Source of the DNA: Candidatus Omnitrophota bacterium
Lineage (GTDB): Bacteria; Omnitrophota; Gorgyraeia; Gygaellales; Profunditerraquicolaceae
Direction of reading: 5' to 3'
DNA: 64,000 nt
Assembly (NCBI GenBank): GCA_003598025.1
Contig: QZKH01000006.1
Span: forward strand, 108,035 to 172,034
Shown: in pieces, positions 8,569 through 23,811 of the stretch
Numbering within the stretch: position 1 is the first letter of the stretch
Layout: each line of letters begins with the position of its first letter
Notes under the pieces: generated by a model
Told to the model about the DNA's origin: nothing
What the model saw: the letters and a program-made list of their open reading frames with translations, nothing else
Database searches by the model: none
Position numbers and translations under genes: made by a program

Positions 8569-9012
8569 ATGGAAGTAATTTTGAAGAAAGATGTAGCTAA
8601 AGTCGGAAAATCCGGGAGTGTGATAAAAGTAAAAGACGGTTTTGCGCGTAATTTTCTTTTTCCTCACAATCTTGCGGTCCCGGTTACAGATGGAAACCTG
8701 AAAAAAATAGAAGAAGACAAACAGAGGAAAGCAAGCCAGATGCAGAAATTGAAACAGCAGGCCCAGGATATGGCAGATAGGCTTTCAAAATTATCCCTGA
8801 CAGTGCCTGTGCTGACCCATGATGATGACCAGGTATACGGCAGTATTTCTGCGGTAGAAATAGAAAAAGCCCTTAAAGACGAAGGTTACGATGTCAGTAA
8901 GAATCAAATAGAACTGGAAGAGCAGATTAAGACCGTCGGAATTTATGAAGTGCCGGTGAAACTGCATCCGGAAGTAAAGACAATTGTCAAGATCTGGGTA
9001 GTAAAGAAATAA
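8569..9012 (+). CDS. rplI: 50S ribosomal protein L9
   Basis: MEVILKKDVAKVGKSGSVIKVKDGFARNFL L9 N-domain. Confidence 0.85.
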   Translation: MEVILKKDVAKVGKSGSVIKVKDGFARNFLFPHNLAVPVTDGNLKKIEEDKQRKASQMQKLKQQAQDMADRLSKLSLTVPVLTHDDDQVYGSISAVEIEKALKDEGYDVSKNQIELEEQIKTVGIYEVPVKLHPEVKTIVKIWVVKK

Positions 9013-9053
9013 TATATATATATATATTATTTCTAAATCAGTGCCTTTTAAAT

Positions 9054-10391
9054 ATGCCTCAAGATTTAACATTAGACAAGATCCCTCCGCAGAATCTAGA
9101 AGCTGAAATGGCGTTATTAGGCTCTATGCTTATGGACGAAAACGCTATTTCGGTTGCCGCCGAATCATTGAGCGCAGAGTGTTTTTATAAAGATGCGCAT
9201 AAGAAGATTTTCCAGGCAATACTTGAATTATACAATTCCAACAAGGCGGTCGATCTTATTACACTTACAGATGAATTAAAAAGAGACAACCTTATTGATG
9301 AGATCGGAGGAGTAAGTTTTCTTACGGGCCTGGTTAATTCCGTACCTACTGCCGCTAATGCTTCATATTACGTAGGGATAGTAAAAGAAAAAAGCCTGCT
9401 TAGGGGCCTGATTAACAGCGCTACCAGGATAATCGCGATGTGTTATGAAACACAGGGCCATATTGATGAGGTAGTTGATAGTGCTGAAAAGCTTATTTTT
9501 GATGTCAGGGACACAAGAAGCCAGAGTAGCTATTTGCTTCTAAAGGAAATAGTAAAAGACAGCATAGAAACAATAGACAAGCTGTACCAGAAGAAGGCCC
9601 ACGTTACGGGTATACCTACAGGTTATATAGATTTTGATTTAAAGACCGCAGGACTTCAGCCATCAGACCTTATTATCGTTGCAGGAAGGCCTTCAATGGG
9701 TAAAAGTGCTTTGGCGCTTGGCATAGCTGAATATGCCGGAGTGGTTGAAAAGATGCCCATAGCAATATTCAGCCTTGAGATGTCAAAAGAGCAATTGGTG
9801 CAAAGGATGCTCTGTTCGCATGCCAAAGTGGATGCTAATAAAGTGCGTACAGGTTATTTGGCAACTTCCGATTGGCCGAGGCTTACTGCCGCAGCCGGTA
9901 AACTTTCAGAGGCACCTATATTTATAGACGATACGCCGGCAATCTCGGTCATGGAATTAAGGGCAAAAGCAAGGCGCCTTAAAATGCACCACGATATAAA
10001 GCTTATAATCCTTGACTATTTGCAGCTTATGCGGGGCTCAGTCAGCATAGAAAACAGGCAGCAGGAGATATCGGAGATTTCGCGTTCATTAAAGGCCTTA
10101 GCCAGGGAATTAAGCGTCCCGGTTATTGCCGTTAGCCAGCTTTCCCGCGCTGTAGAATCCCGCAATGACCACAGGCCTCAATTATCCGATTTGAGGGAGT
10201 CCGGTGCTATTGAGCAGGACGCAGACCTGGTTGTCCTTATACTTAGGGAAGAGTATTATAACCCTTCTCCTGATAATCAGGGCATAGCCGAGATAATAAT
10301 TGCAAAGCAGCGTAACGGGCCCGTAGGTTCGCTTAAATTGACATTTTTAAAAGAGTATACAAGATTCGAGAACATCGCACGCATAGAATAA
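9054..10391 (+). CDS. dnaB: replicative DNA helicase
   Basis: DnaB N-domain (NLEAEMALLGSML), Walker A GRPSMGKSALAL and RecA-like core. Confidence 0.9.
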   Translation: MPQDLTLDKIPPQNLEAEMALLGSMLMDENAISVAAESLSAECFYKDAHKKIFQAILELYNSNKAVDLITLTDELKRDNLIDEIGGVSFLTGLVNSVPTAANASYYVGIVKEKSLLRGLINSATRIIAMCYETQGHIDEVVDSAEKLIFDVRDTRSQSSYLLLKEIVKDSIETIDKLYQKKAHVTGIPTGYIDFDLKTAGLQPSDLIIVAGRPSMGKSALALGIAEYAGVVEKMPIAIFSLEMSKEQLVQRMLCSHAKVDANKVRTGYLATSDWPRLTAAAGKLSEAPIFIDDTPAISVMELRAKARRLKMHHDIKLIILDYLQLMRGSVSIENRQQEISEISRSLKALARELSVPVIAVSQLSRAVESRNDHRPQLSDLRESGAIEQDADLVVLILREEYYNPSPDNQGIAEIIIAKQRNGPVGSLKLTFLKEYTRFENIARIE

Positions 10392-10442
10392 TTACCAAAA
10401 AACAAATTGATAAAACCCAAACACTTTAATATAATATCAATA

Positions 10443-18508: not shown

Positions 18509-18513
18509 GATTT

Positions 18514-18587
18514 GCGCCCATAGCTCAATTGGATAGAGCACTAGTCTTCGGAACTAGGTGTTGCTGGTTCAACTCCAGCTGGGCGCA
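18514..18587 (+). tRNA. tRNA-Arg(UCG)
   Basis: Cloverleaf: acceptor GCGCCCA/TGGGCGC, D-arm GCTC/GAGC, anticodon stem CTAGT/ACTAG, loop CTTCGGA, T-loop TTCAACT. Confidence 0.8.
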
Positions 18588-18885
18588 TTTGAAATTGGTC
18601 CCTAAACTCACAAGATTTGGGATTTTGCCGCAGAAAGCGGCACACCCGCGCAAATCCACATAAGCGCGGGGTGTCTGTTGTTGGTATCAATTGGTATGCT
18701 GTTGCATGATGTGGTGTGAAAGTGGGTCAGAAAATGGGCACTTCCCCGTAAACACCCCTACCCCATACCCCCCGAAGCACCCCCAAGAGCAAAATCTACT
18801 GCCTTGGGATTCGCTTGTATACAAAAAGCAGGGTTAAGGGAAGAAGAATATAGAAGGGGAGGGTTTCCCCTCCCCAGTAGAGAAC

Positions 18886-19191
18886 TTAGCGGACACCACA
18901 GACAGGATTGAATTGTTCCCTGAGTTCTTGTTCAATCTGCATACGGCTTGTTTGTTGTAATCCTGGTGTGTAAAGCACAGCGACCTTCAGTGTGCCAATG
19001 CGATTTCTTGTCCAGCAGTTTTCTCTTTCGTGATTCTCGACTCTCGATTTCACAGTTGCAGACTCGCCAACATCAATTACTATCAGCTTGCTACTTCTGT
19101 CATCGACAATCGCGTAGACCCCGGCTCTATCCTGTAAGTAGCCCGTATAGGCATAAGGGCCTTCGAAGTTGTACTTCCCGATTGTCACCAT
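18886..19191 (-). CDS. small hypothetical protein, distant GIY-YIG-like
   Basis: aggagg RBS upstream on the minus strand. GVYAIVD...KLIVIDVGESATVKSRVENHER resembles the GIY...YIG...R..EH pattern. A ggggaggg/ccctcccc terminator follows downstream on the minus strand. Sits in the GC-richer patch. Confidence 0.4.
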   Translation of the reverse strand: MVTIGKYNFEGPYAYTGYLQDRAGVYAIVDDRSSKLIVIDVGESATVKSRVENHERENCWTRNRIGTLKVAVLYTPGLQQTSRMQIEQELREQFNPVCGVR

Positions 19192-19522
19192 TTGGTAATT
19201 CCTCCTGTGTTAAAAGATTGTTTCGCCGACTTTCTCCCCGCTCGTCTTCTTAGGTTCCGTTCATAACGCCTCCTTCGTGAGCGGAATACAGGAAGGAAAG
19301 TTGTTGACTTTCTCCAAGGCTAACATACAATATTGTTAACCGTAGTAAACACAAAGCAGATGAGATAGGTATTCCGCAATCGCCTTTATCCATCTGTTTT
19401 TGTGCAGTCCAATTATACCACTTTGGTGAATGATGTCAAGCATTTATTAAAAATATAAATCTTGACATATACTGCATTTTGTGGTAAGTTTATTCTAGTT
19501 TAAAAAAAAGGGGGGGCATAAA

Positions 19523-19888
19523 GTGGACATCAATAATGTTGATCAGCAGATAAATTGTTTTATAGGTCGTAGGATTACTGAGCTTAGACTGCAAAAGGGA
19601 TGGTCACAATCGCAACTTGCTGAAGCTATTGGCAAAGATAGCGCAACGGCTATTTCTTATTTTGAGAGTGGAGCGAGGAAAGTCAGTATAGATGATTTAA
19701 TAAAGATTGCGAAAGTTTTTGATAAAACGATTGCAGACTTTCTGCCTAGGACTGCTACAGATCAAGTTGAGCCAAAAGATTTTGCTCTAAAGCTTAGGTC
19801 AAACTACAACAGTCTTGATAAAGAAACCGAGAAAAGTATTCTAGACTTTACCGAATTAGCGAAAAAGAAGTTTGGAAAGAATAAATGA
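19523..19888 (+). CDS. XRE-family HTH transcriptional regulator
   Basis: LRLQKGWSQSQLAEAIGKDSATAISYFESGARKVSIDDLIKIAKVF is an HTH_3 domain. GTG start after a G-rich RBS. TTGACA-17-TAAGTT promoter upstream. Confidence 0.8.
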   Translation: MDINNVDQQINCFIGRRITELRLQKGWSQSQLAEAIGKDSATAISYFESGARKVSIDDLIKIAKVFDKTIADFLPRTATDQVEPKDFALKLRSNYNSLDKETEKSILDFTELAKKKFGKNK

Positions 19889-20391
19889 TTGAAAAGCCCC
19901 GTTATTCACATGCCAGTAAGATTGCACAGAAAGCTTTAAAAGAAGCTCAAGTAAATGCTCCCCCAGTAGATGTTAATAAGATTCTCAATGGCCTGAGAAT
20001 CAATTTTCTTCCCTATTCTTTTCCTGATAAGGTATCTGCGATACTTTTAAAAGATAATAATATGCTTGTAATCGGGGTTAATAAAAATCACCCTCCCAAT
20101 AGACAAAGATTTTCTATAGCGCATGAAATTGGACATTATCTTCTAGGGCATTATAAAGAAATTTTTGTTGATACCGCTGAGATATCAGAAGGAAGATTTG
20201 AGGCTGCTGATGAAGAGCATAATAAGGTACAGGAACAAGAAGCAAATTATTTTGCAGGAGAACTTCTTATGCCATCGGATATGTTAAAGAAAGATTTCCT
20301 GAAACTCAAGAATGTTGAAGAGATAGCTAAATTATATCAAGTAAGTAAAGAAGCGCTCTGGATTAGATTACTAAAATTAAAACTCGTTTAA
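19885..20391 (+). CDS. ImmA/IrrE-family metallopeptidase (DUF955)
   Basis: HEIGHYLLGH HExxH motif. 4-nt overlap with the upstream XRE gene, the classic ImmR/ImmA arrangement. Confidence 0.8.
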   Translation: MIEKPRYSHASKIAQKALKEAQVNAPPVDVNKILNGLRINFLPYSFPDKVSAILLKDNNMLVIGVNKNHPPNRQRFSIAHEIGHYLLGHYKEIFVDTAEISEGRFEAADEEHNKVQEQEANYFAGELLMPSDMLKKDFLKLKNVEEIAKLYQVSKEALWIRLLKLKLV

Positions 20392-20406
20392 TTAGCTAAA
20401 TAAAGT

Positions 20407-21120
20407 ATGGAAGAGATTAAACAACCTTGGCTTAGAGGGATAATCGATACCTTAACCGCGGCTAATCTAATAAAGCATTCTAAGATTGAGCATAGAAATA
20501 GATTAGTTGTGATCTTATTAGATAGTGCACTCGAAATTGCTTTTAGAAGTTTTCTTAAAAGAATCAAGAGAATACAATTATCGGAAGCTCACAAACACAG
20601 AGAAAATTTAGTAAAAGCAGTACAAAATAATATTTCTTTTGATGCTGAAGTTTGGGATTCGATAAACTACTATTACGAAGATATTAGGTGTGATTTTTAT
20701 CATACCTCATCAGATAAAACCTTAACAGATAAATCATTAGAGACTTATATTGAACTAGTGGAATTTGTTATAAACAGTTTGCTTAATATTAAATGCAGGG
20801 ATTTTATTCTTAAGCCAAGTGAGGTAATGACAACAGAGGGTGCAAGCAAAGATCAAGAAAAGCCCATCTATTTCGGAGATCTCAAGTCAGATTTGGAAGT
20901 ATTTTTAGTTGGAGTCGATAAATATAATCCTTCTAGCTTAACTGAGTTACTGGAACATTTAAAAAAAGAGGGAGTCAGAAAGAAATTTACTTATAAACAA
21001 TTTAATAATTGCGTAGGAGCAAATTATCGCCATCTATTTTATTATGATAAATCTACTAAAAGATGGAATCTATCAAGTGAAGGATTAAGAAAGTTACGTA
21101 GTCTAAAAGAACAAACTTAA
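20407..21120 (+). CDS. hypothetical protein (237 aa), possible C-terminal winged-helix
   Basis: No recognisable catalytic motif. RIQLSEAH is a possible Rx6H. AT-rich codon usage distinct from neighbouring genes. Confidence 0.5.
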   Translation: MEEIKQPWLRGIIDTLTAANLIKHSKIEHRNRLVVILLDSALEIAFRSFLKRIKRIQLSEAHKHRENLVKAVQNNISFDAEVWDSINYYYEDIRCDFYHTSSDKTLTDKSLETYIELVEFVINSLLNIKCRDFILKPSEVMTTEGASKDQEKPIYFGDLKSDLEVFLVGVDKYNPSSLTELLEHLKKEGVRKKFTYKQFNNCVGANYRHLFYYDKSTKRWNLSSEGLRKLRSLKEQT

Positions 21121-21132
21121 AGGAGGAGAAAA

Positions 21133-21747
21133 ATGACTGATCAACGTAAGGCTTTAAAAGGGAAATTAGAAATACTTATTGGAAATGCTATAAAGTTAAT
21201 AATTGATTTTGATGATGAAAAAGAAGTTATAAGCGCTTTATCCTCCATTGAAAAAATTAAAGAAAGCCTTGTAAAGTATGATAAAGTTTTTAGTACAGGG
21301 GTTCCTACAAAAACTATTCCGATTCAACAGGGGAAGGATAGATTATCAGAAGTGGAAGATGAATATGGGAAGATAGCAAATATGCTAGACGATGTGAATG
21401 TCGAGAACTTACGGCAATCTAAAATATTCAGTATTAAAGAAGATGCGGTGCAGTTATTAAAACCAAATCAATTTAAGACGGCTACAGAAGCTTTATGTGT
21501 TTTGATTTTTATTTTAGAATCTGGTTTAGGTAAAAGAGACATTCCTTATGAAGCATTTAGAAACATTTTCGAGTCACAAAATATAAAGAGTGGTAGTCCA
21601 CTCGTTATGCTGATGAATAATTTAAAAAATGCCAAATATATTGATAGCAAGAAATATGATGCAAAAACAATTTCTTTAACTCCTAAAGGTCAAGAAAATG
21701 CAATAGGAGTTTTGAATAAGCTAGTAACAACTACTGCCAAACAATAG
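21133..21747 (+). CDS. hypothetical protein (204 aa)
   Basis: aggagg RBS. No recognisable domain. Tightly spaced with the flanking genes (operon). Confidence 0.5.
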   Translation: MTDQRKALKGKLEILIGNAIKLIIDFDDEKEVISALSSIEKIKESLVKYDKVFSTGVPTKTIPIQQGKDRLSEVEDEYGKIANMLDDVNVENLRQSKIFSIKEDAVQLLKPNQFKTATEALCVLIFILESGLGKRDIPYEAFRNIFESQNIKSGSPLVMLMNNLKNAKYIDSKKYDAKTISLTPKGQENAIGVLNKLVTTTAKQ

Positions 21748-21758
21748 CAAAGGATAGC

Positions 21759-22277
21759 ATGGGAATAACTAATTGGTTAATGGTAATACTAACTTTAGCC
21801 TATGTCATAACAACTATTTGTATTTTGGTCAATTCGACTAGACAATTTAAAGAAAATCTTAGACCAAGAGTATATGTTGATTTCAGATTTGAAGGGCATG
21901 AAATGTATGTTGTGATTAAAAACTTTGGTGATAAAGCGGCCTATAATATAATTATAAAATTTACTCCAGATATTGAATATCAAATGGGGGGAAAGAGGAT
22001 GCTTAATGATCAGCCTTTTATTAAAAACCTACCATTTCTTAGCCCTCAAAACGAATTAGATAGTATAATGGGATTGAGCTCTGAGGTATTACCACTGCAA
22101 AATTCCAAAGAGGTTAGAGCTACCATTAATTATAAAGATGAAAAGGATAACAAATATAATGAAAATTATTTTTTCTCGTGGGAGGCATATAGTAGAAGAA
22201 ATTTTGTTTCAAAAAGAGGGCTACATGAAATAGCTACTGTCCTTGAAGAAATTAAAAGCTCTCTAAAAAGAACTTAA
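21759..22277 (+). CDS. hypothetical membrane-anchored protein (172 aa)
   Basis: N-terminal TM helix WLMVILTLAYVITTICILV followed by a beta-rich domain. Confidence 0.5.
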   Translation: MGITNWLMVILTLAYVITTICILVNSTRQFKENLRPRVYVDFRFEGHEMYVVIKNFGDKAAYNIIIKFTPDIEYQMGGKRMLNDQPFIKNLPFLSPQNELDSIMGLSSEVLPLQNSKEVRATINYKDEKDNKYNENYFFSWEAYSRRNFVSKRGLHEIATVLEEIKSSLKRT

Positions 22278-22288
22278 AATAAGTTTAA

Positions 22289-22429
22289 TTAAAAGTTCAG
22301 TAACTCGGCAGGTTTTACTTTCAGCGCTCTGGCAAGTCTGTCAATCGTATCAATCTTTAAAGCAGGCGGGTTCTTTCCTTCAATTCTCTGTATATACTTA
22401 TAATCAATATCCGCTACCTCAGAAAGCAT
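22289..22429 (-). pseudogene. truncated XRE-family HTH gene fragment
   Basis: The minus-strand translation MLSEVADIDYKYIQRIEGKNPPALKIDTIDRLARALKVKPAELLNF is only the C-terminal half of an HTH_3 domain. An in-frame stop lies immediately upstream. Confidence 0.45.
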
Positions 22430-22608
22430 CTCTTGAGTGATTTAGGGATAACTCAATACGCTTAGCGCTATACGCTTGTGTCTTTGTGTCGTGTGTCCTT
22501 GTGACTTACCTTATCATATCCATGAACTATGATCTATGAACCATGAACCAATAGTGTTGACTATTTTCCCCATTTAAGCTAAAATACTACCCTATTCCGC
22601 TAAATTTC

Positions 22609-22625
22609 GGGCCATTAGCTCACCC
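22609..22625 (+). repeat. 5' fragment copy of tRNA-Lys (gggccattagctca)
   Basis: 14/14-nt identity to the first bases of the downstream tRNA-Lys. Confidence 0.5.
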
Positions 22626-22688
22626 ATTCGACTCGGCCGTTCTAAACGGCCTCGCTCAGGGTTAGTAAAAGGTCATTGATAAAAGATT

Positions 22689-22764
22689 TGGGCCATTAGC
22701 TCAGCTGGTAGAGCAGGACACTCTTAATGTCAAGGTCGGAGGTTCGATCCCTCCATGGCTCACC
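22689..22764 (+). tRNA. tRNA-Lys(CUU), CCA encoded
   Basis: Acceptor GGGCCAT/ATGGCTC, D-arm GCTC/GAGC, anticodon loop CTCTTAA, T-loop TTCGATC, terminal CCA. Confidence 0.85.
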
Positions 22765-22910
22765 ATATCTTTGGTCGAACCTCCGGGGGTGTGGGGGGAA
22801 CGCCCCCACGTTTGGGGGAGAACAGCGATTCAATTTAAACAATCCAGGTTTAAGCGTTAGGAGGGGGCTTGCCACCTCCTAAGGAGCCATGATTTTAAGA
22901 TGATGGCGAC

Positions 22911-22932
22911 GGTTCGATCCCTCCATGGCTCA
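22911..22932 (+). repeat. direct repeat of tRNA-Lys 3' end (att-like scar)
   Basis: ggttcgatccctccatggctca is identical to the tRNA 3' 22 nt, 146 bp downstream of the intact gene. Confidence 0.6.
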
Positions 22933-23033: not shown

Positions 23034-23441
23034 TTGTACACTTTATTTGTCCAAAAGGGAGAGATAGTTTTGACAAATTTTGAATGTTTGTATTATAAGA
23101 CTATAAATGGACGTATTCCAGTTATGGATTTTATCGATCATCTAAGTTTTAAAACTCAGAGAAAATTTTATGTAAAGATAGACCTGCTTGAGGAATACGG
23201 CCCTAGGCTTCCTGAGCCACATGCGAAAAAAATTGAACAAGATTTATACGAACTAAGATTTGAAGCTGATGATGGGGCTTTTAGAATTATTTACTTTTTT
23301 TATATAGGGAAAAAAATAATATTGTTGAATGGTTTTAAAAAGAAAACGAGAAAAATCCCAAGGAGAGAAGTTGAGTTAGCTAAAAATAGAATGGTAGACT
23401 ATTTAAATACTTTAGATTCCTGCGTAATAAAAGAAAAATAA
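23034..23441 (+). CDS. HigB / Gp49-like RelE-ParE superfamily toxin
   Basis: LYELRFEADDGAFRIIYFFYIGKKIILLNGFKKKT matches the DUF891/Gp49 toxin signature. Confidence 0.65.
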   Translation: MYTLFVQKGEIVLTNFECLYYKTINGRIPVMDFIDHLSFKTQRKFYVKIDLLEEYGPRLPEPHAKKIEQDLYELRFEADDGAFRIIYFFYIGKKIILLNGFKKKTRKIPRREVELAKNRMVDYLNTLDSCVIKEK

Positions 23442-23478
23442 TAATGTTATAACATTAAGCTAGGAAGAGAGGATACTG

Positions 23479-23811
23479 ATGATACGAAAACTTAAAAGTG
23501 TTAGAGAACACCTAGATGAAAAATTAAAAGATCCATATTTTAGAGAACTTTATGAACTTGAGCAAGAAAGAATGAAGATATCAAGGTTATTTATTGACTA
23601 TCGTGCGAAGAATAATTTAACCCAGGAAGAATTAGCTTCTAAATTGGGTATCAGCCAGCAGTATATTTCTAAGCTCGAAGAGGGAATTTTTAGTAATATT
23701 CGAGATGTCGCCAAGATTTTGCTTGCTATCGGTTATAAGATCGAATTTAAAATAATAAATATTCCTAGCAAGATTAGTAAGATTATAAGAAACAAACTAC
23801 AGGTAGCTTAA
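23479..23811 (+). CDS. HigA-like XRE HTH antitoxin
   Basis: NLTQEELASKLGISQQYISKLEEG HTH. Directly downstream of the toxin (toxin-first HigBA order). Confidence 0.65.
   Translation: MIRKLKSVREHLDEKLKDPYFRELYELEQERMKISRLFIDYRAKNNLTQEELASKLGISQQYISKLEEGIFSNIRDVAKILLAIGYKIEFKIINIPSKISKIIRNKLQVA

What the first reader, a model, noticed from the sequence alone, without database searches (positions are those of the whole stretch)
19523..22277. XRE/ImmA-controlled five-gene operon with three orphan proteins inside a tRNA-flanked accessory island: candidate uncharacterised defense or conflict system
Five tightly packed + strand genes (gaps of 4 to 16 nt) begin with an XRE HTH repressor and an ImmA/IrrE HExxH metallopeptidase. 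That signal-responsive switch is typical of mobile elements and increasingly of anti-phage islands. Three proteins follow (237, 204 and 172 aa) with no recognisable catalytic motifs by eye. The first has a possible Rx6H and a C-terminal winged-helix-like region. The third has an N-terminal TM anchor. The operon is visibly AT-richer than the flanking housekeeping genes. It sits between tRNA-Arg (18514) and tRNA-Lys (22689), next to a GC-richer patch carrying a minus-strand GIY-YIG-like gene. A truncated XRE gene (22289-22429, minus) and tRNA-fragment repeats follow, then a HigBA-like TA pair. This is classic defense-island context. No integrase, recombinase or phage structural gene is present, so the cargo rather than a prophage seems to be what is maintained.
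Basis: partly seen in the sequence, partly recalled or inferred. Interest (0 to 1): 0.75.

Follow-up and report, generated by a model that had tools for sequence, protein, structure and literature searches.

The report
Swappable-cargo XRE/ImmA cassette with HEPN pair
The five genes are not one system but three independently mobile pieces joined end to end: a repressor/protease switch that carries different anti-phage cargo in other genomes, a previously undescribed two-gene module built around a predicted RNA-cutting (HEPN) toxin, and an unrelated small membrane protein.

Summary
In detail: five co-directional genes (19523-22277) with gaps of 15 nt or less, AT-rich, in a tRNA-flanked island of a Candidatus Omnitrophota MAG. 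The "five-gene system with three orphans" reading does not hold. DNA and protein comparisons split the locus into three modules whose homology breaks fall in the intergenic spacers.

- **M1:** a GIY-YIG-like gene, back-to-back promoters, an XRE repressor and a short ImmA-type peptidase. It recurs at 71-79% identity on two other contigs, where the downstream cargo is a type II restriction-modification system or a ThsB-TIR/SLATT-like set. A more distant relative sits divergent from a CBASS.
- **M3:** g5, a membrane-anchored protein found alone beside other defence genes, including at the same chromosomal hotspot in a relative.

Most likely the switch controls a toxin-antitoxin or abortive-infection-type HEPN RNase module. 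This is a new variant of known kinds and moderately interesting.

The parts
18513..18588 (+). tRNA-Arg(TCG), left landmark of the island
   Evidence: ARAGORN; Rfam tRNA 69 bits
18589..18885 (.). GC/C-rich non-coding patch (GC 0.50). Positions 18750-18828 recur in L008 directly after a tRNA-Lys
18886..19191 (-). 101-aa GIY-YIG-like ORF, divergent from g1 and part of module M1. It is 75% identical to a syntenic ORF in L026
   Evidence: There is no profile or PDB support for the GIY-YIG label
19412..19439 (-). Perfect sigma-70 type promoter (TTGACA-16-TATAAT with TG), reading towards the GIY-YIG-like gene
   Evidence: 12/12 match; conserved in L026 and L027
19462..19490 (+). Putative g1 promoter (TTGACA, 17 nt, TGnTAAGTT), back-to-back with the minus-strand promoter. 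The two -35 boxes form an inverted repeat, TGTCAAG...CTTGACA, which is a candidate XRE operator
   Evidence: sequence; conserved blocks in the three-way alignment. The operator role is inferred
19523..19888 (+). g1: XRE-family HTH repressor (ImmR/CapH-like), 121 aa
   Evidence: HTH_3 4.7e-13; capH 6.3e-14; 75-79% identical homologs in L026/L027
19885..20391 (+). g2: ImmA/IrrE-type M78 Zn-peptidase, 168 aa. It is the peptidase domain only, with HEIGH and no cysteine
   Evidence: Peptidase_M78 3.1e-26; capP 9e-33 covering profile positions 3-153 of 242; homologs
20407..21120 (+). g3: HEPN(Rx4H) plus C-terminal winged-helix protein, the predicted RNase effector/toxin
21133..21747 (+). g4: obligate partner of g3. 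It has a small variable N-terminal domain, a linker and a conserved C-terminal domain of about 110 aa with winged-helix-like secondary structure. Predicted neutraliser/sensor
   Evidence: follows g3 in 15/15 loci with gaps of -26 to +29 nt; alignment A3. The model is poor, pLDDT 53
21759..22277 (+). g5: independent module, N-terminal TM helix plus a soluble domain of about 145 aa with a conserved NLPFLSPxNELD motif; PHROG 9607
   Evidence: phrog_9607 4.8e-11; hydropathy; alignment; contexts; homology block 21751-22364 to L008
22289..22429 (-). N-terminally truncated XRE HTH remnant. Its 3' part belongs to the g5 homology block shared with L008
   Evidence: HTH_26 profile positions 16-60/63
22606..22932 (+). 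tRNA-Lys(CTT) at 22690-22765, with a 5' fragment copy (22606-22622) and an exact 22-nt 3'-end repeat (22911-22932). These are att-like scars
23034..23811 (+). Gp49/HigB-like toxin plus XRE antitoxin pair, a separate TA module
   Evidence: PF05973 1.7e-28; HTH_3 8.7e-12

Best explanation
The locus is a mosaic of three horizontally mobile modules placed in a tRNA-associated variable hotspot.

**M1 (18855-20401): the switch.** M1 is a portable ImmR/ImmA-type switch related to CapH/CapP. It consists of an XRE repressor and a short M78 peptidase behind a conserved region with two back-to-back promoters, plus a divergent small gene. Inferred: the XRE dimer binds the promoter region and limits transcription in both directions. 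On an unknown stress or infection signal the peptidase cleaves the repressor, raising expression of whatever lies downstream. In other genomes that downstream cargo is a type II restriction-modification system or a ThsB-TIR/SLATT-like set. Here it is M2.

**M2 (g3-g4): the effector module.** M2 is a self-contained, previously undescribed two-gene module of the toxin-antitoxin or abortive-infection kind. g3 is a HEPN ribonuclease with a canonical invariant Rx4H and its own winged helix. g4 is its obligate, tightly coupled partner. Inferred: g4 holds the RNase inactive, with its N-terminal domain and linker occluding the HEPN site and its C-terminal winged helix binding nucleic acid. This would resemble the WH protein of type IX retrons or the toxin-first antitoxins MqsA and HicB. 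Inferred: phage infection, or loss of g4, frees g3 to cleave cellular RNA and arrest growth.

**M3 (g5): an unrelated passenger.** g5 is a membrane-anchored protein that rides at the 3' end of various defence operons. It is probably not part of the HEPN system.

**Shown:** the modularity, the folds and motifs of g1-g3, the g3-g4 pairing and the cargo swapping.
**Inferred:** repression and cleavage, RNase activity, neutralisation by g4 and the anti-phage role.
For: **Modularity**
- blastn homology to L026 and L027 stops at the g2 stop codon (window 20401 and 20393).
- Homology to L005/L006/L025 covers only 20413-21719.
- Homology to L008 starts at 21751.

**Cargo swapping behind 75-79% identical g1-g2**
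- L026 carries N6_N4_Mtase+SNase and RE_MjaI (PADLOC MTase_II 2e-188, REase_II 8e-92).
- L027 carries ThsB_TIR (6e-19) and DUF4231/SLATT_1.
- L029, with a 36% identical 177-aa CapP-like protein, sits divergent from a cyclase/E2/SAVED-nuclease CBASS.
- The regulatory region is conserved across the three cassettes, and the minus-strand promoter is a perfect consensus match.

**g3**
- The AF2 model has pLDDT 86.5.
- N31, R32, D39, E43, R65, R94, Y98 and H99 are invariant across 25 sequences.

**The g3-g4 pair**
- A g4 homolog lies immediately downstream of g3 in 14 other loci from Anaerolineales, Gemmatimonadota, Hydrogenedentota, Ignavibacteriaceae, Saccharibacteria and metagenomes.
- None of those loci has XRE+ImmA directly upstream of the pair or a g5 homolog next to it.

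**Conflict-type relatives of the HEPN domain**
- The domain is fused to HATPase_c_3, RelA_SpoT and TPR domains in other proteins.
- Neighbours of the pair include OLD-family ATPase/nuclease, type ISP RM, HicAB- and HigB-like genes, integrases, and AbiJ_NTD4 and HEPN_AbiV proteins.

**g5 independence:**

**Published mechanisms used for analogy:** CapH/CapP (10.1101/2022.04.27.489752; 10.64898/2026.05.16.725639) and the type IX retron HEPN-WH (10.64898/2026.07.14.738597).
Against: - There is no functional data of any kind.
- g2 lacks the HTH and GAF domains that bind ssDNA in CapP and IrrE, so the activating signal is unknown.
- Published CapH/CapP pairs lie on the strand opposite to the operon they regulate. 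Here the cargo is co-directional, so de-repression could mainly target the divergent GIY-YIG-like gene while the cargo is simply co-expressed with the repressor.
- g4 has no PDB or Pfam hit beyond a weak DUF6429 match in 3 of 13 members. Its role as neutraliser rests on synteny and analogy.
- Several g3-g4 loci sit among ordinary housekeeping genes. That fits a TA module but is not strong defence-island evidence.
- No member of the g3 or g4 families hits PADLOC 2.0.0. Neither family was found in phage or plasmid collections.
Confidence: 0.6

Rival explanations
1. The locus is a decayed immunity region of an integrative element (prophage or ICE). Under this reading XRE/ImmA is that element's lysogeny-type switch, and its real regulated target is the divergent promoter and the GIY-YIG-like gene. 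g3-g5 are morons co-transcribed with the repressor, as rexAB are with lambda cI. They would then be expressed constitutively rather than induced.
For: - The layout matches ImmR-ImmA of ICEBs1: repressor, then a short peptidase of about 170 aa, with a divergent promoter (background).
- tRNA-fragment scars and a truncated XRE are present.
- L027 carries a serine recombinase and an integrase-like gene downstream.
- L028, with a 46% identical g2, looks phage-like.
- g5 hits a PHROG.
Against: - No integrase, excisionase or structural genes are present here or in L026.
- The cassette recurs with only defence cargo and ends precisely at the g2 stop codon.
- A relative regulates a CBASS.

This rival overlaps the best explanation. 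It differs mainly in the direction of regulation.
Confidence: 0.2
2. This is a Rosmer-like toxin-antitoxin system with a split antitoxin. XRE plus ImmA together correspond to RmrA and neutralise the downstream HEPN toxin g3 at the protein level. The variable 'cargo' genes would then be alternative toxins.
For: - g1 and g2 hit many PADLOC RmrA models, covering the HTH part and the peptidase part respectively, with E-values down to 2.8e-8 and 7.7e-15.
- ImmA-domain antitoxins pair with diverse toxins, including nucleases (PMC10440598).
Against: - The capP and capH models score far better: 9e-33 and 6e-14.
- RmrA is a single protein of about 360-400 aa with a C-terminal region that is absent here.
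- g3 occurs in 14 loci with g4 but without any XRE+ImmA directly upstream of the pair, so it does not depend on g1/g2.
- The L026 cargo is a complete restriction-modification pair, not a toxin.
Confidence: 0.1
3. This is the first reader's model: one integrated five-gene defence system in which g3, g4 and g5 act together under XRE/ImmA control.
For: The genes are tightly packed and co-directional with no internal terminator. They share low GC.
Against: - The five genes never co-occur elsewhere.
- The three homology blocks have independent distributions.
- GC steps from 0.34-0.37 in g1-g2 to 0.31 in g3-g5.
Confidence: 0.05
4. g3-g4 is a non-toxic regulatory or RNA-processing pair: two winged-helix proteins, one with a HEPN domain used for binding rather than cleavage.
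For: - Both proteins appear to carry wHTH-like C-termini.
- Some loci lie among housekeeping genes.
- Non-catalytic HEPN domains exist (PMC3710099).
Against: - R and H of the Rx4H motif are invariant across 25 sequences at 33-74% identity.
- The distribution is patchy and cross-phylum.
- The same HEPN domain is fused to RelA/SpoT, GHKL ATPase and TPR domains.
- The pair is linked to integrases, TA genes and Abi genes.
Confidence: 0.05

Closest known systems
ImmR/ImmA of ICEBs1 and phi105
   Same: An XRE-type repressor is followed on the same strand by a stand-alone M78 peptidase of about 170 aa, next to a divergent promoter. Further genes are co-transcribed downstream of the pair.
   Different: No integrase or excision genes are present. 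The downstream genes are defence-type cargo that differs between copies. The activating signal is unknown.
CapH/CapP regulators of CBASS and other immune operons (Lau et al. 2022; Calloji et al. 2026)
   Same: These are the best-scoring profiles for g1 and g2 (capH 6e-14, capP 9e-33). The pair is associated with varied immune cargo, and a 36% identical relative flanks a CBASS in the canonical divergent layout.
   Different: g2 is the peptidase domain only, with no HTH/GAF ssDNA-binding groove and no cysteine switch. The cargo is co-directional instead of on the opposite strand.
HEPN toxin modules: HepT-MntA (HEPN-MNT), RnlA-RnlB/LsoA-LsoB, and AbiJ/AbiV-type HEPN Abi proteins
   Same: All have a HEPN fold with a conserved Rx4-6H. 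They are small two-gene cassettes with patchy horizontal distribution. As in rnlAB, the toxin gene comes first.
   Different: The partner is not a nucleotidyltransferase and resembles no known antitoxin. The toxin carries its own C-terminal winged helix. There is no sequence match to any Pfam HEPN family, apart from a weak HEPN_RiboL-PSP hit (0.0021) in a fused relative.
Type IX retron effectors (HEPN nuclease plus WH protein; Retron-Kva2 preprint, 2026)
   Same: A HEPN nuclease is paired with a separate protein of about 200-245 aa that has N-terminal small domain(s) and a C-terminal HTH. In the retron this WH protein wraps the HEPN active site and keeps it off.
   Different: There is no reverse transcriptase or msr/msd RNA here. 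The retron HEPN lacks Rx4-6H, whereas g3 has the canonical motif. Homology between g4 and the retron WH protein could not be tested.
Rosmer (RmrT/RmrA)
   Same: It combines HTH and ImmA-type peptidase domains next to diverse toxins and has a phage-defence role.
   Different: RmrA is one fused protein acting as an antitoxin. Here the two domains are separate proteins, and the HEPN gene has its own constant partner, g4.

Membership tests
CapH/CapP | Adjacent XRE-HTH protein and M78/DUF955 Zn-peptidase | tested here: met
   HTH_3 4.7e-13; Peptidase_M78 3.1e-26; capH 6.3e-14 and capP 9e-33
CapH/CapP | The pair lies upstream of, and on the opposite strand to, the regulated immune operon | tested here: not met
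   g3-g5 are co-directional and 15 nt downstream of g2. Only the 101-aa GIY-YIG-like ORF is divergent
CapH/CapP | CapP has three domains: peptidase, HTH and GAF, with the ssDNA groove lying between peptidase and GAF | tested here: not met
   g2 is 168 aa and covers capP profile positions 3-153 of 242 only.
CapH/CapP | Cysteine-switch loop (present in 33% of CapP proteins) | tested here: not met
   The g2 sequence contains no cysteine
CapH/CapP | ssDNA-stimulated cleavage of the repressor | not testable with these tools
   This needs biochemistry
ImmR/ImmA | Repressor followed by a stand-alone peptidase of about 170 aa on the same strand, with a divergent promoter | tested here: met
ImmR/ImmA | Controls integrase/excision genes of a mobile element | tested here: not met
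   No int or xis in 18.5-24 kb
HEPN superfamily | All-alpha HEPN fold | tested here: met
HEPN superfamily | Conserved Rx4-6H motif | tested here: met
   R94-[CN]-D-[FL]-Y-H99, with R94 and H99 invariant in 25 sequences
HEPN superfamily | Metal-independent RNase activity | not testable with these tools
   This needs biochemistry
HEPN-MNT (HepT/MntA) TA | Adjacent minimal nucleotidyltransferase antitoxin | tested here: not met
   g4 and 12 homologs have no NTase hit in Pfam, PADLOC, NCBIfam or PDB
Type IX retron | Reverse transcriptase and msr/msd ncRNA next to the HEPN and WH genes | tested here: not met
   No RT domain among the island ORFs and no Rfam retron RNA
Type IX retron | WH partner with HEPN-binding domains and a C-terminal HTH | tested here: inconclusive
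Rosmer (RmrA) | A single fused HTH-ImmA antitoxin of about 360-400 aa paired with the toxin | tested here: not met
   The two domains are split over g1 and g2, and the RmrA models are matched only in part. g3 occurs without an adjacent XRE+ImmA in 14 loci
Type II toxin-antitoxin module (generic) | Conserved, tightly coupled two-gene cassette with patchy horizontal distribution | tested here: met
   15/15 loci with gaps of -26 to +29 nt; seven or more phyla
Type II toxin-antitoxin module (generic) | Toxicity of one product neutralised by the other | not testable with these tools
   This needs expression assays
GIY-YIG nuclease (ORF 18886-19191) | Profile or structural match to the GIY-YIG domain | tested here: inconclusive
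   By eye the ORF shows GVY-x11-DVG-x7-R...E...N. There is no Pfam hit at E<=0.1 and no PDB hit. PADLOC gives only a weak PDC-S14 match at 0.0035

The most novel reading that the evidence does not exclude
Two linked possibilities remain open.

1. g3-g4 may be a new stand-alone abortive-infection system. The winged-helix partner would sense a phage nucleic acid or protein and release a canonical HEPN RNase. This would in effect be an RT-free counterpart of the type IX retron effector pair.
2. The M1 cassette (divergent small nuclease-like gene, XRE and short ImmA) may be a mobile 'adaptor' that captures different immune cargos and puts them under one inducible switch. That would make the cassette a usable marker for discovering new defence genes in uncultured phyla.
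Probability: 0.3. Interest if true: 0.7.

Novelty: new variant of a known kind. Interest (0 to 1): 0.5.

Why it matters
- **A new protein family.** The work defines a small HEPN family (356 clusters at 50% identity among 1.84 billion proteins) and its obligate partner. Both are absent from Pfam, NCBIfam and PADLOC, and the g3-g4 pair spans at least seven bacterial phyla.
- **A direct example of cargo swapping.** Near-identical XRE/ImmA switches are shown with interchangeable immune cargo: a restriction-modification system, TIR/SLATT and the HEPN pair.
- **A different regulatory layout.** Here the cargo is co-directional with the regulators and the peptidase lacks the ssDNA-sensing domains, unlike the published CapH/CapP arrangement. 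This raises the question of what signal such minimal peptidases read.
- **A discovery handle.** The cassette could serve as a guilt-by-association marker for new defence genes in poorly sampled lineages such as Omnitrophota.

Tried and rejected
- **Sequence searches against PDB:** profile and sequence searches of g3 (A1), g4 (A3) and the GIY-YIG-like ORF found nothing.
- **g3 vs g4 C-termini:** hhalign of the g3 and g4 profiles, run to test whether the two C-terminal domains are paralogous, was not significant (probability 0.6%, E 0.09).
- **Mobile-element collections:** viral-contig scans for g3 and g5 and tblastn of g3 and g5 against annotated phages and plasmids found nothing.
- **Rfam:** a search over 17.5-24.5 kb found only the two tRNAs.
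- **PADLOC:** scans of g3-family members and of other architectures carrying the same HEPN domain gave no family hit for the HEPN domain; the only match was a TPR model to the TPR region of P0136.
- **Weak hits I give no weight to:** AbiJ_NTD4 in 4 of 25 g3 homologs (best E 0.011), DUF6429 in 3 of 13 g4 homologs and a PADLOC SIR2 hit at 0.025 for g3.
- **L010 genes after the g5 homolog:** I considered that the 272-aa and 196-aa genes might be divergent g3/g4. BLAST and Pfam show an MBL-fold protein and a multi-TM protein instead.


Full report
**Observation**

The window comes from a Candidatus Omnitrophota MAG. Exact matches to g3, g4 and g5 are annotated as hypothetical proteins C4533_05910/15/20 on a 374-kb contig.

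Five + strand ORFs occupy 19523-22277. g1 and g2 overlap by 4 nt, and the following spacers are 15, 12 and 11 nt. tRNA-Arg (18513-18588) and tRNA-Lys (22690-22765) flank them. GC falls from about 0.42 in the flanks to 0.34-0.37 in g1-g2 and 0.31 in g3-g5. A patch of GC 0.50 lies at 18589-18885.

- a truncated XRE remnant at 22289-22429(-), matching HTH_26 profile positions 16-60 only;
- tRNA-Lys fragment repeats: a 5' piece at 22606-22622 and an exact 22-nt 3' repeat at 22741-22762 and 22911-22932;
- a Gp49/HigB-like plus XRE pair at 23034-23811.

There is no integrase, recombinase or phage structural gene in the interval. The one exception is the GIY-YIG label of the 101-aa minus-strand ORF, which has no profile or PDB support.

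**What the five proteins are**

- **g1** is an XRE HTH protein (HTH_3 4.7e-13; PADLOC capH 6.3e-14).
- **g2** is an M78 ImmA/IrrE-type peptidase with HEIGH (3.1e-26; capP 9e-33).
- **g3-g5** have no Pfam, NCBIfam or PADLOC family. g5 hits PHROG 9607, a family of unknown function, at 4.8e-11.

Deep searches found only 27, 8 and 7 relatives of g3, g4 and g5, and none carries an informative functional annotation.

An alignment of 25 g3 homologs at 33-74% identity shows invariant N31, R32, D39, E43, R65, R94, Y98 and H99. That gives the motif R-[CN]-D-[FL]-Y-H, a canonical HEPN Rx4H that reads RNxxxH in many members.

g5 has an N-terminal transmembrane helix and a conserved NLPFLSPxNELD motif.

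**The locus is a mosaic of three modules**

*g3-g4.* Gene neighbourhoods of g3 homologs show that a g4 homolog always follows immediately. This holds in L001, L004, L005/6/7, L012-15, L025, L016-L020, L032, L034, L035/36 and L037. The gaps run from -26 to +29 nt, and an HMM of the g4 family scores the partners at E 1e-55 to 1e-82. That makes 15 of 15 loci including the window. The named genomes are from Anaerolineales, Gemmatimonadota, Hydrogenedentota, Ignavibacteriaceae and Saccharibacteria. None of these loci has XRE+ImmA directly upstream of the pair or a g5 homolog beside it. The nearest ImmA-type gene is a fused HTH-M78 protein about 5 kb downstream in L005, next to a type ISP RM gene.

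*g5.* Conversely, g5 homologs occur without g1-g4:
- after a PIN_12 gene and a caspase-DEAD-helicase fusion in L008;
- after a type I hsdR in L009;
- after a BglII-type RM and a 389-aa protein in L010/11.

L008 is the same chromosomal site in a relative. Its archease, RtcB (83% identity) and SerRS (76%) follow in the same order, and it begins inside a tRNA-Lys. Yet its cargo is entirely different.

*g1-g2.* A metagenome scan with g2 found two contigs carrying g1 and g2 at 75-79% identity. The cargo after g2 differs in each:
- L026 carries an N4/N6 methylase-SNase fusion plus an MjaI-type endonuclease (PADLOC MTase_II 2e-188, REase_II 8e-92).
- L027 carries a ThsB-type TIR protein (6e-19), a DUF4231/SLATT-like membrane protein and an unknown 169-aa protein, followed by a serine recombinase.

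A more distant relative, L029, has a 36% identical, 177-aa peptidase. It lies divergent from a cyclase/E2/SAVED-nuclease CBASS, which is the published CapH/CapP layout.

*Breakpoints.* blastn places the breakpoints precisely:
- Window 18855-20401 matches L026, and 19397-20393 matches L027. Both matches end at the g2 stop codon.
- 20413-21719 matches L005/L006/L025, starting at the g3 start codon.
- 21751-22364 matches L008, starting 8 nt before the g5 start codon.

**The regulatory module**

The 330-nt region between the 101-aa minus-strand ORF and g1 is conserved in all three cassettes. It contains two promoters back to back:
- a perfect TTGACA-16-TATAAT promoter with an extended TG on the minus strand, at 19439-19412;
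- a plus-strand TTGACA (19462-19467) with TGnTAAGTT 17 nt downstream.

The two -35 boxes form an inverted repeat, which is a plausible XRE operator. This is an inference.

Published CapH/CapP pairs sit on the strand opposite to their immune operon. CapP has peptidase, HTH and GAF domains, and ssDNA binds in the peptidase-GAF groove. A third of CapP proteins have a cysteine switch. Here g2 is the peptidase domain only: it covers capP profile positions 3-153 of 242 and has no cysteine. The cargo is also co-directional. The pair therefore belongs to the CapH/CapP-ImmR/ImmA-DdrO/IrrE regulator class but has the ImmR/ImmA layout. The ssDNA-sensing mechanism cannot be assumed, so the signal is unknown.

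**How it most likely works**

*Shown:*
- The switch cassette is portable and carries different immune cargo.
- g3 is a HEPN fold with an intact catalytic signature.
- g4 is its obligate partner, and their genes are tightly spaced or overlapping.

*Inferred:*
- XRE limits transcription from the back-to-back promoters.
- The peptidase removes XRE on a stress or infection cue.
- The g3-g4 module then behaves as a toxin-antitoxin or abortive-infection pair. g4 keeps the RNase silent until infection disturbs the complex.

Two known cases support this as analogy:
- In the type IX retron, a separate WH protein with HEPN-binding domains and a C-terminal HTH encircles the HEPN active site.
- From general knowledge of toxin-first TA systems (MqsRA, HicAB, RnlAB), the antitoxin has an N-terminal neutralising part and a C-terminal DNA-binding part.

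The HEPN domain of g3 also occurs fused to GHKL/MORC-type ATPase (about 525-aa proteins, including one in a Methanosarcinaceae genome), RelA/SpoT and TPR modules. Such fusions are typical of conflict systems (PMC3710099). Neighbours of the pair elsewhere include an OLD-family ATPase/nuclease, a type ISP RM gene, HigB- and HicAB-like genes, integrases, and AbiJ_NTD4 and HEPN_AbiV proteins.

g5 is best treated as an independent membrane protein that often sits at the 3' end of defence operons. Its function remains open.

**Rivals**

1. *A decayed mobile-element immunity region.* The divergent promoter would be the real target, and g3-g5 would be morons co-expressed with the repressor. This overlaps the main model and differs in the direction of regulation. 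Confidence 0.2.
2. *A Rosmer-like split antitoxin.* g1 and g2 hit RmrA models, but far more weakly than capH/capP. g3 also has its own constant partner and occurs without an adjacent ImmA. Confidence 0.1.
3. *One integrated five-gene system.* This is contradicted by the comparative data. Confidence 0.05.
4. *A non-toxic regulatory pair.* This is unlikely given the invariant Rx4H and the patchy horizontal distribution. Confidence 0.05.

**Novelty and verdict**

The regulator class and HEPN toxins are both known. Three things are new:
- a HEPN-wHTH family with an uncharacterised obligate partner. The HEPN family has 356 clusters at 50% identity, of which roughly 20 have the g3 architecture. It has no entry in Pfam, NCBIfam or PADLOC.
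- a clear case of one short-ImmA switch cassette carrying interchangeable immune cargo;
- a co-directional layout for that cassette.

This is a new variant of known kinds. It still yields a concrete, testable new two-gene module and a useful marker cassette.

Noticed in passing
window 18886-19191 (-) and promoter 19412-19439 (-): A 101-aa ORF with a GIY-YIG-like pattern by eye sits behind a perfect consensus promoter, back-to-back with the g1 promoter. The ORF and promoter are conserved with the XRE/ImmA cassette in L026 (75% aa identity). L027 keeps only the promoter and a different small minus-strand ORF start. By the published CapH/CapP logic, this divergent gene could be the primary regulated target.
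   Followed up: partly
window 18750-18828; L008 189-262: A C-rich non-coding stretch (…CCCCATACCCCCCGAAGCACC…AGAGCAAAA…GATTCGCTTGT…) follows tRNA-Arg in the window and follows tRNA-Lys in L008. It may be a conserved island-boundary element. It has no Rfam match.
   Followed up: partly
L008 373-6635: At the same hotspot upstream of archease-RtcB-SerRS, a related genome carries a 1030-aa caspase(C14)-DEAD/Helicase_C fusion, a PIN_12 protein, the g5 homolog and a GGDEF/Cas10-palm-like protein. This looks like an unusual candidate defence set.
   Followed up: no
L026 3420-9446: The M1 cassette and its type II RM cargo lie between a duplicated 3' fragment of comM (Mg_chelatase_C) and an intact comM. 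This suggests insertion at the comM 3' end without an integrase on the island.
   Followed up: no
L021-L024 (about 8800-10400 in each); P0075, P0087 and others: Proteins of about 525 aa combine an N-terminal GHKL/MORC-type HATPase_c_3 with a C-terminal g3-type HEPN domain. They form the largest branch of this HEPN family and include one in a Methanosarcinaceae MAG. RelA_SpoT (P0141) and TPR (P0136) fusions also exist. None of the HEPN domains hits PADLOC.
   Followed up: partly
L034 422-3863: Here the g3-g4 pair is followed by an AbiJ_NTD4-domain protein and a HEPN_AbiV protein, making a cluster of three HEPN-type Abi-like genes.
   Followed up: no
L005 639-1328; L006 3387-4040; L007 675-1328: Two small ORFs (110/122 aa and 106 aa, with no family) are identical on three contigs and sit directly upstream of the g3-g4 pair. 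The wider flanks of L005 and L006 differ. The ORFs may belong to the mobile unit in that lineage.
   Followed up: no
L010 3623-6709; L011: In another lineage the g5 homolog heads a tight four-gene set: g5, a 272-aa MBL-fold-like protein, a 196-aa multi-TM protein and a 360-aa MBL-fold-like protein. The set lies downstream of a BglII-type RM and a 389-aa protein containing an RVNFKH (Rx4H-like) string.
   Followed up: no
window 22741-22762 and 22911-22932; 22606-22622: An exact 22-nt repeat of the tRNA-Lys 3' end lies 170 nt downstream of the gene, and a 17-nt copy of its 5' end lies 84 nt upstream. These are att-like scars of past integrations. The HigB-like/XRE TA pair lies just beyond the 3' repeat.
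   Followed up: partly
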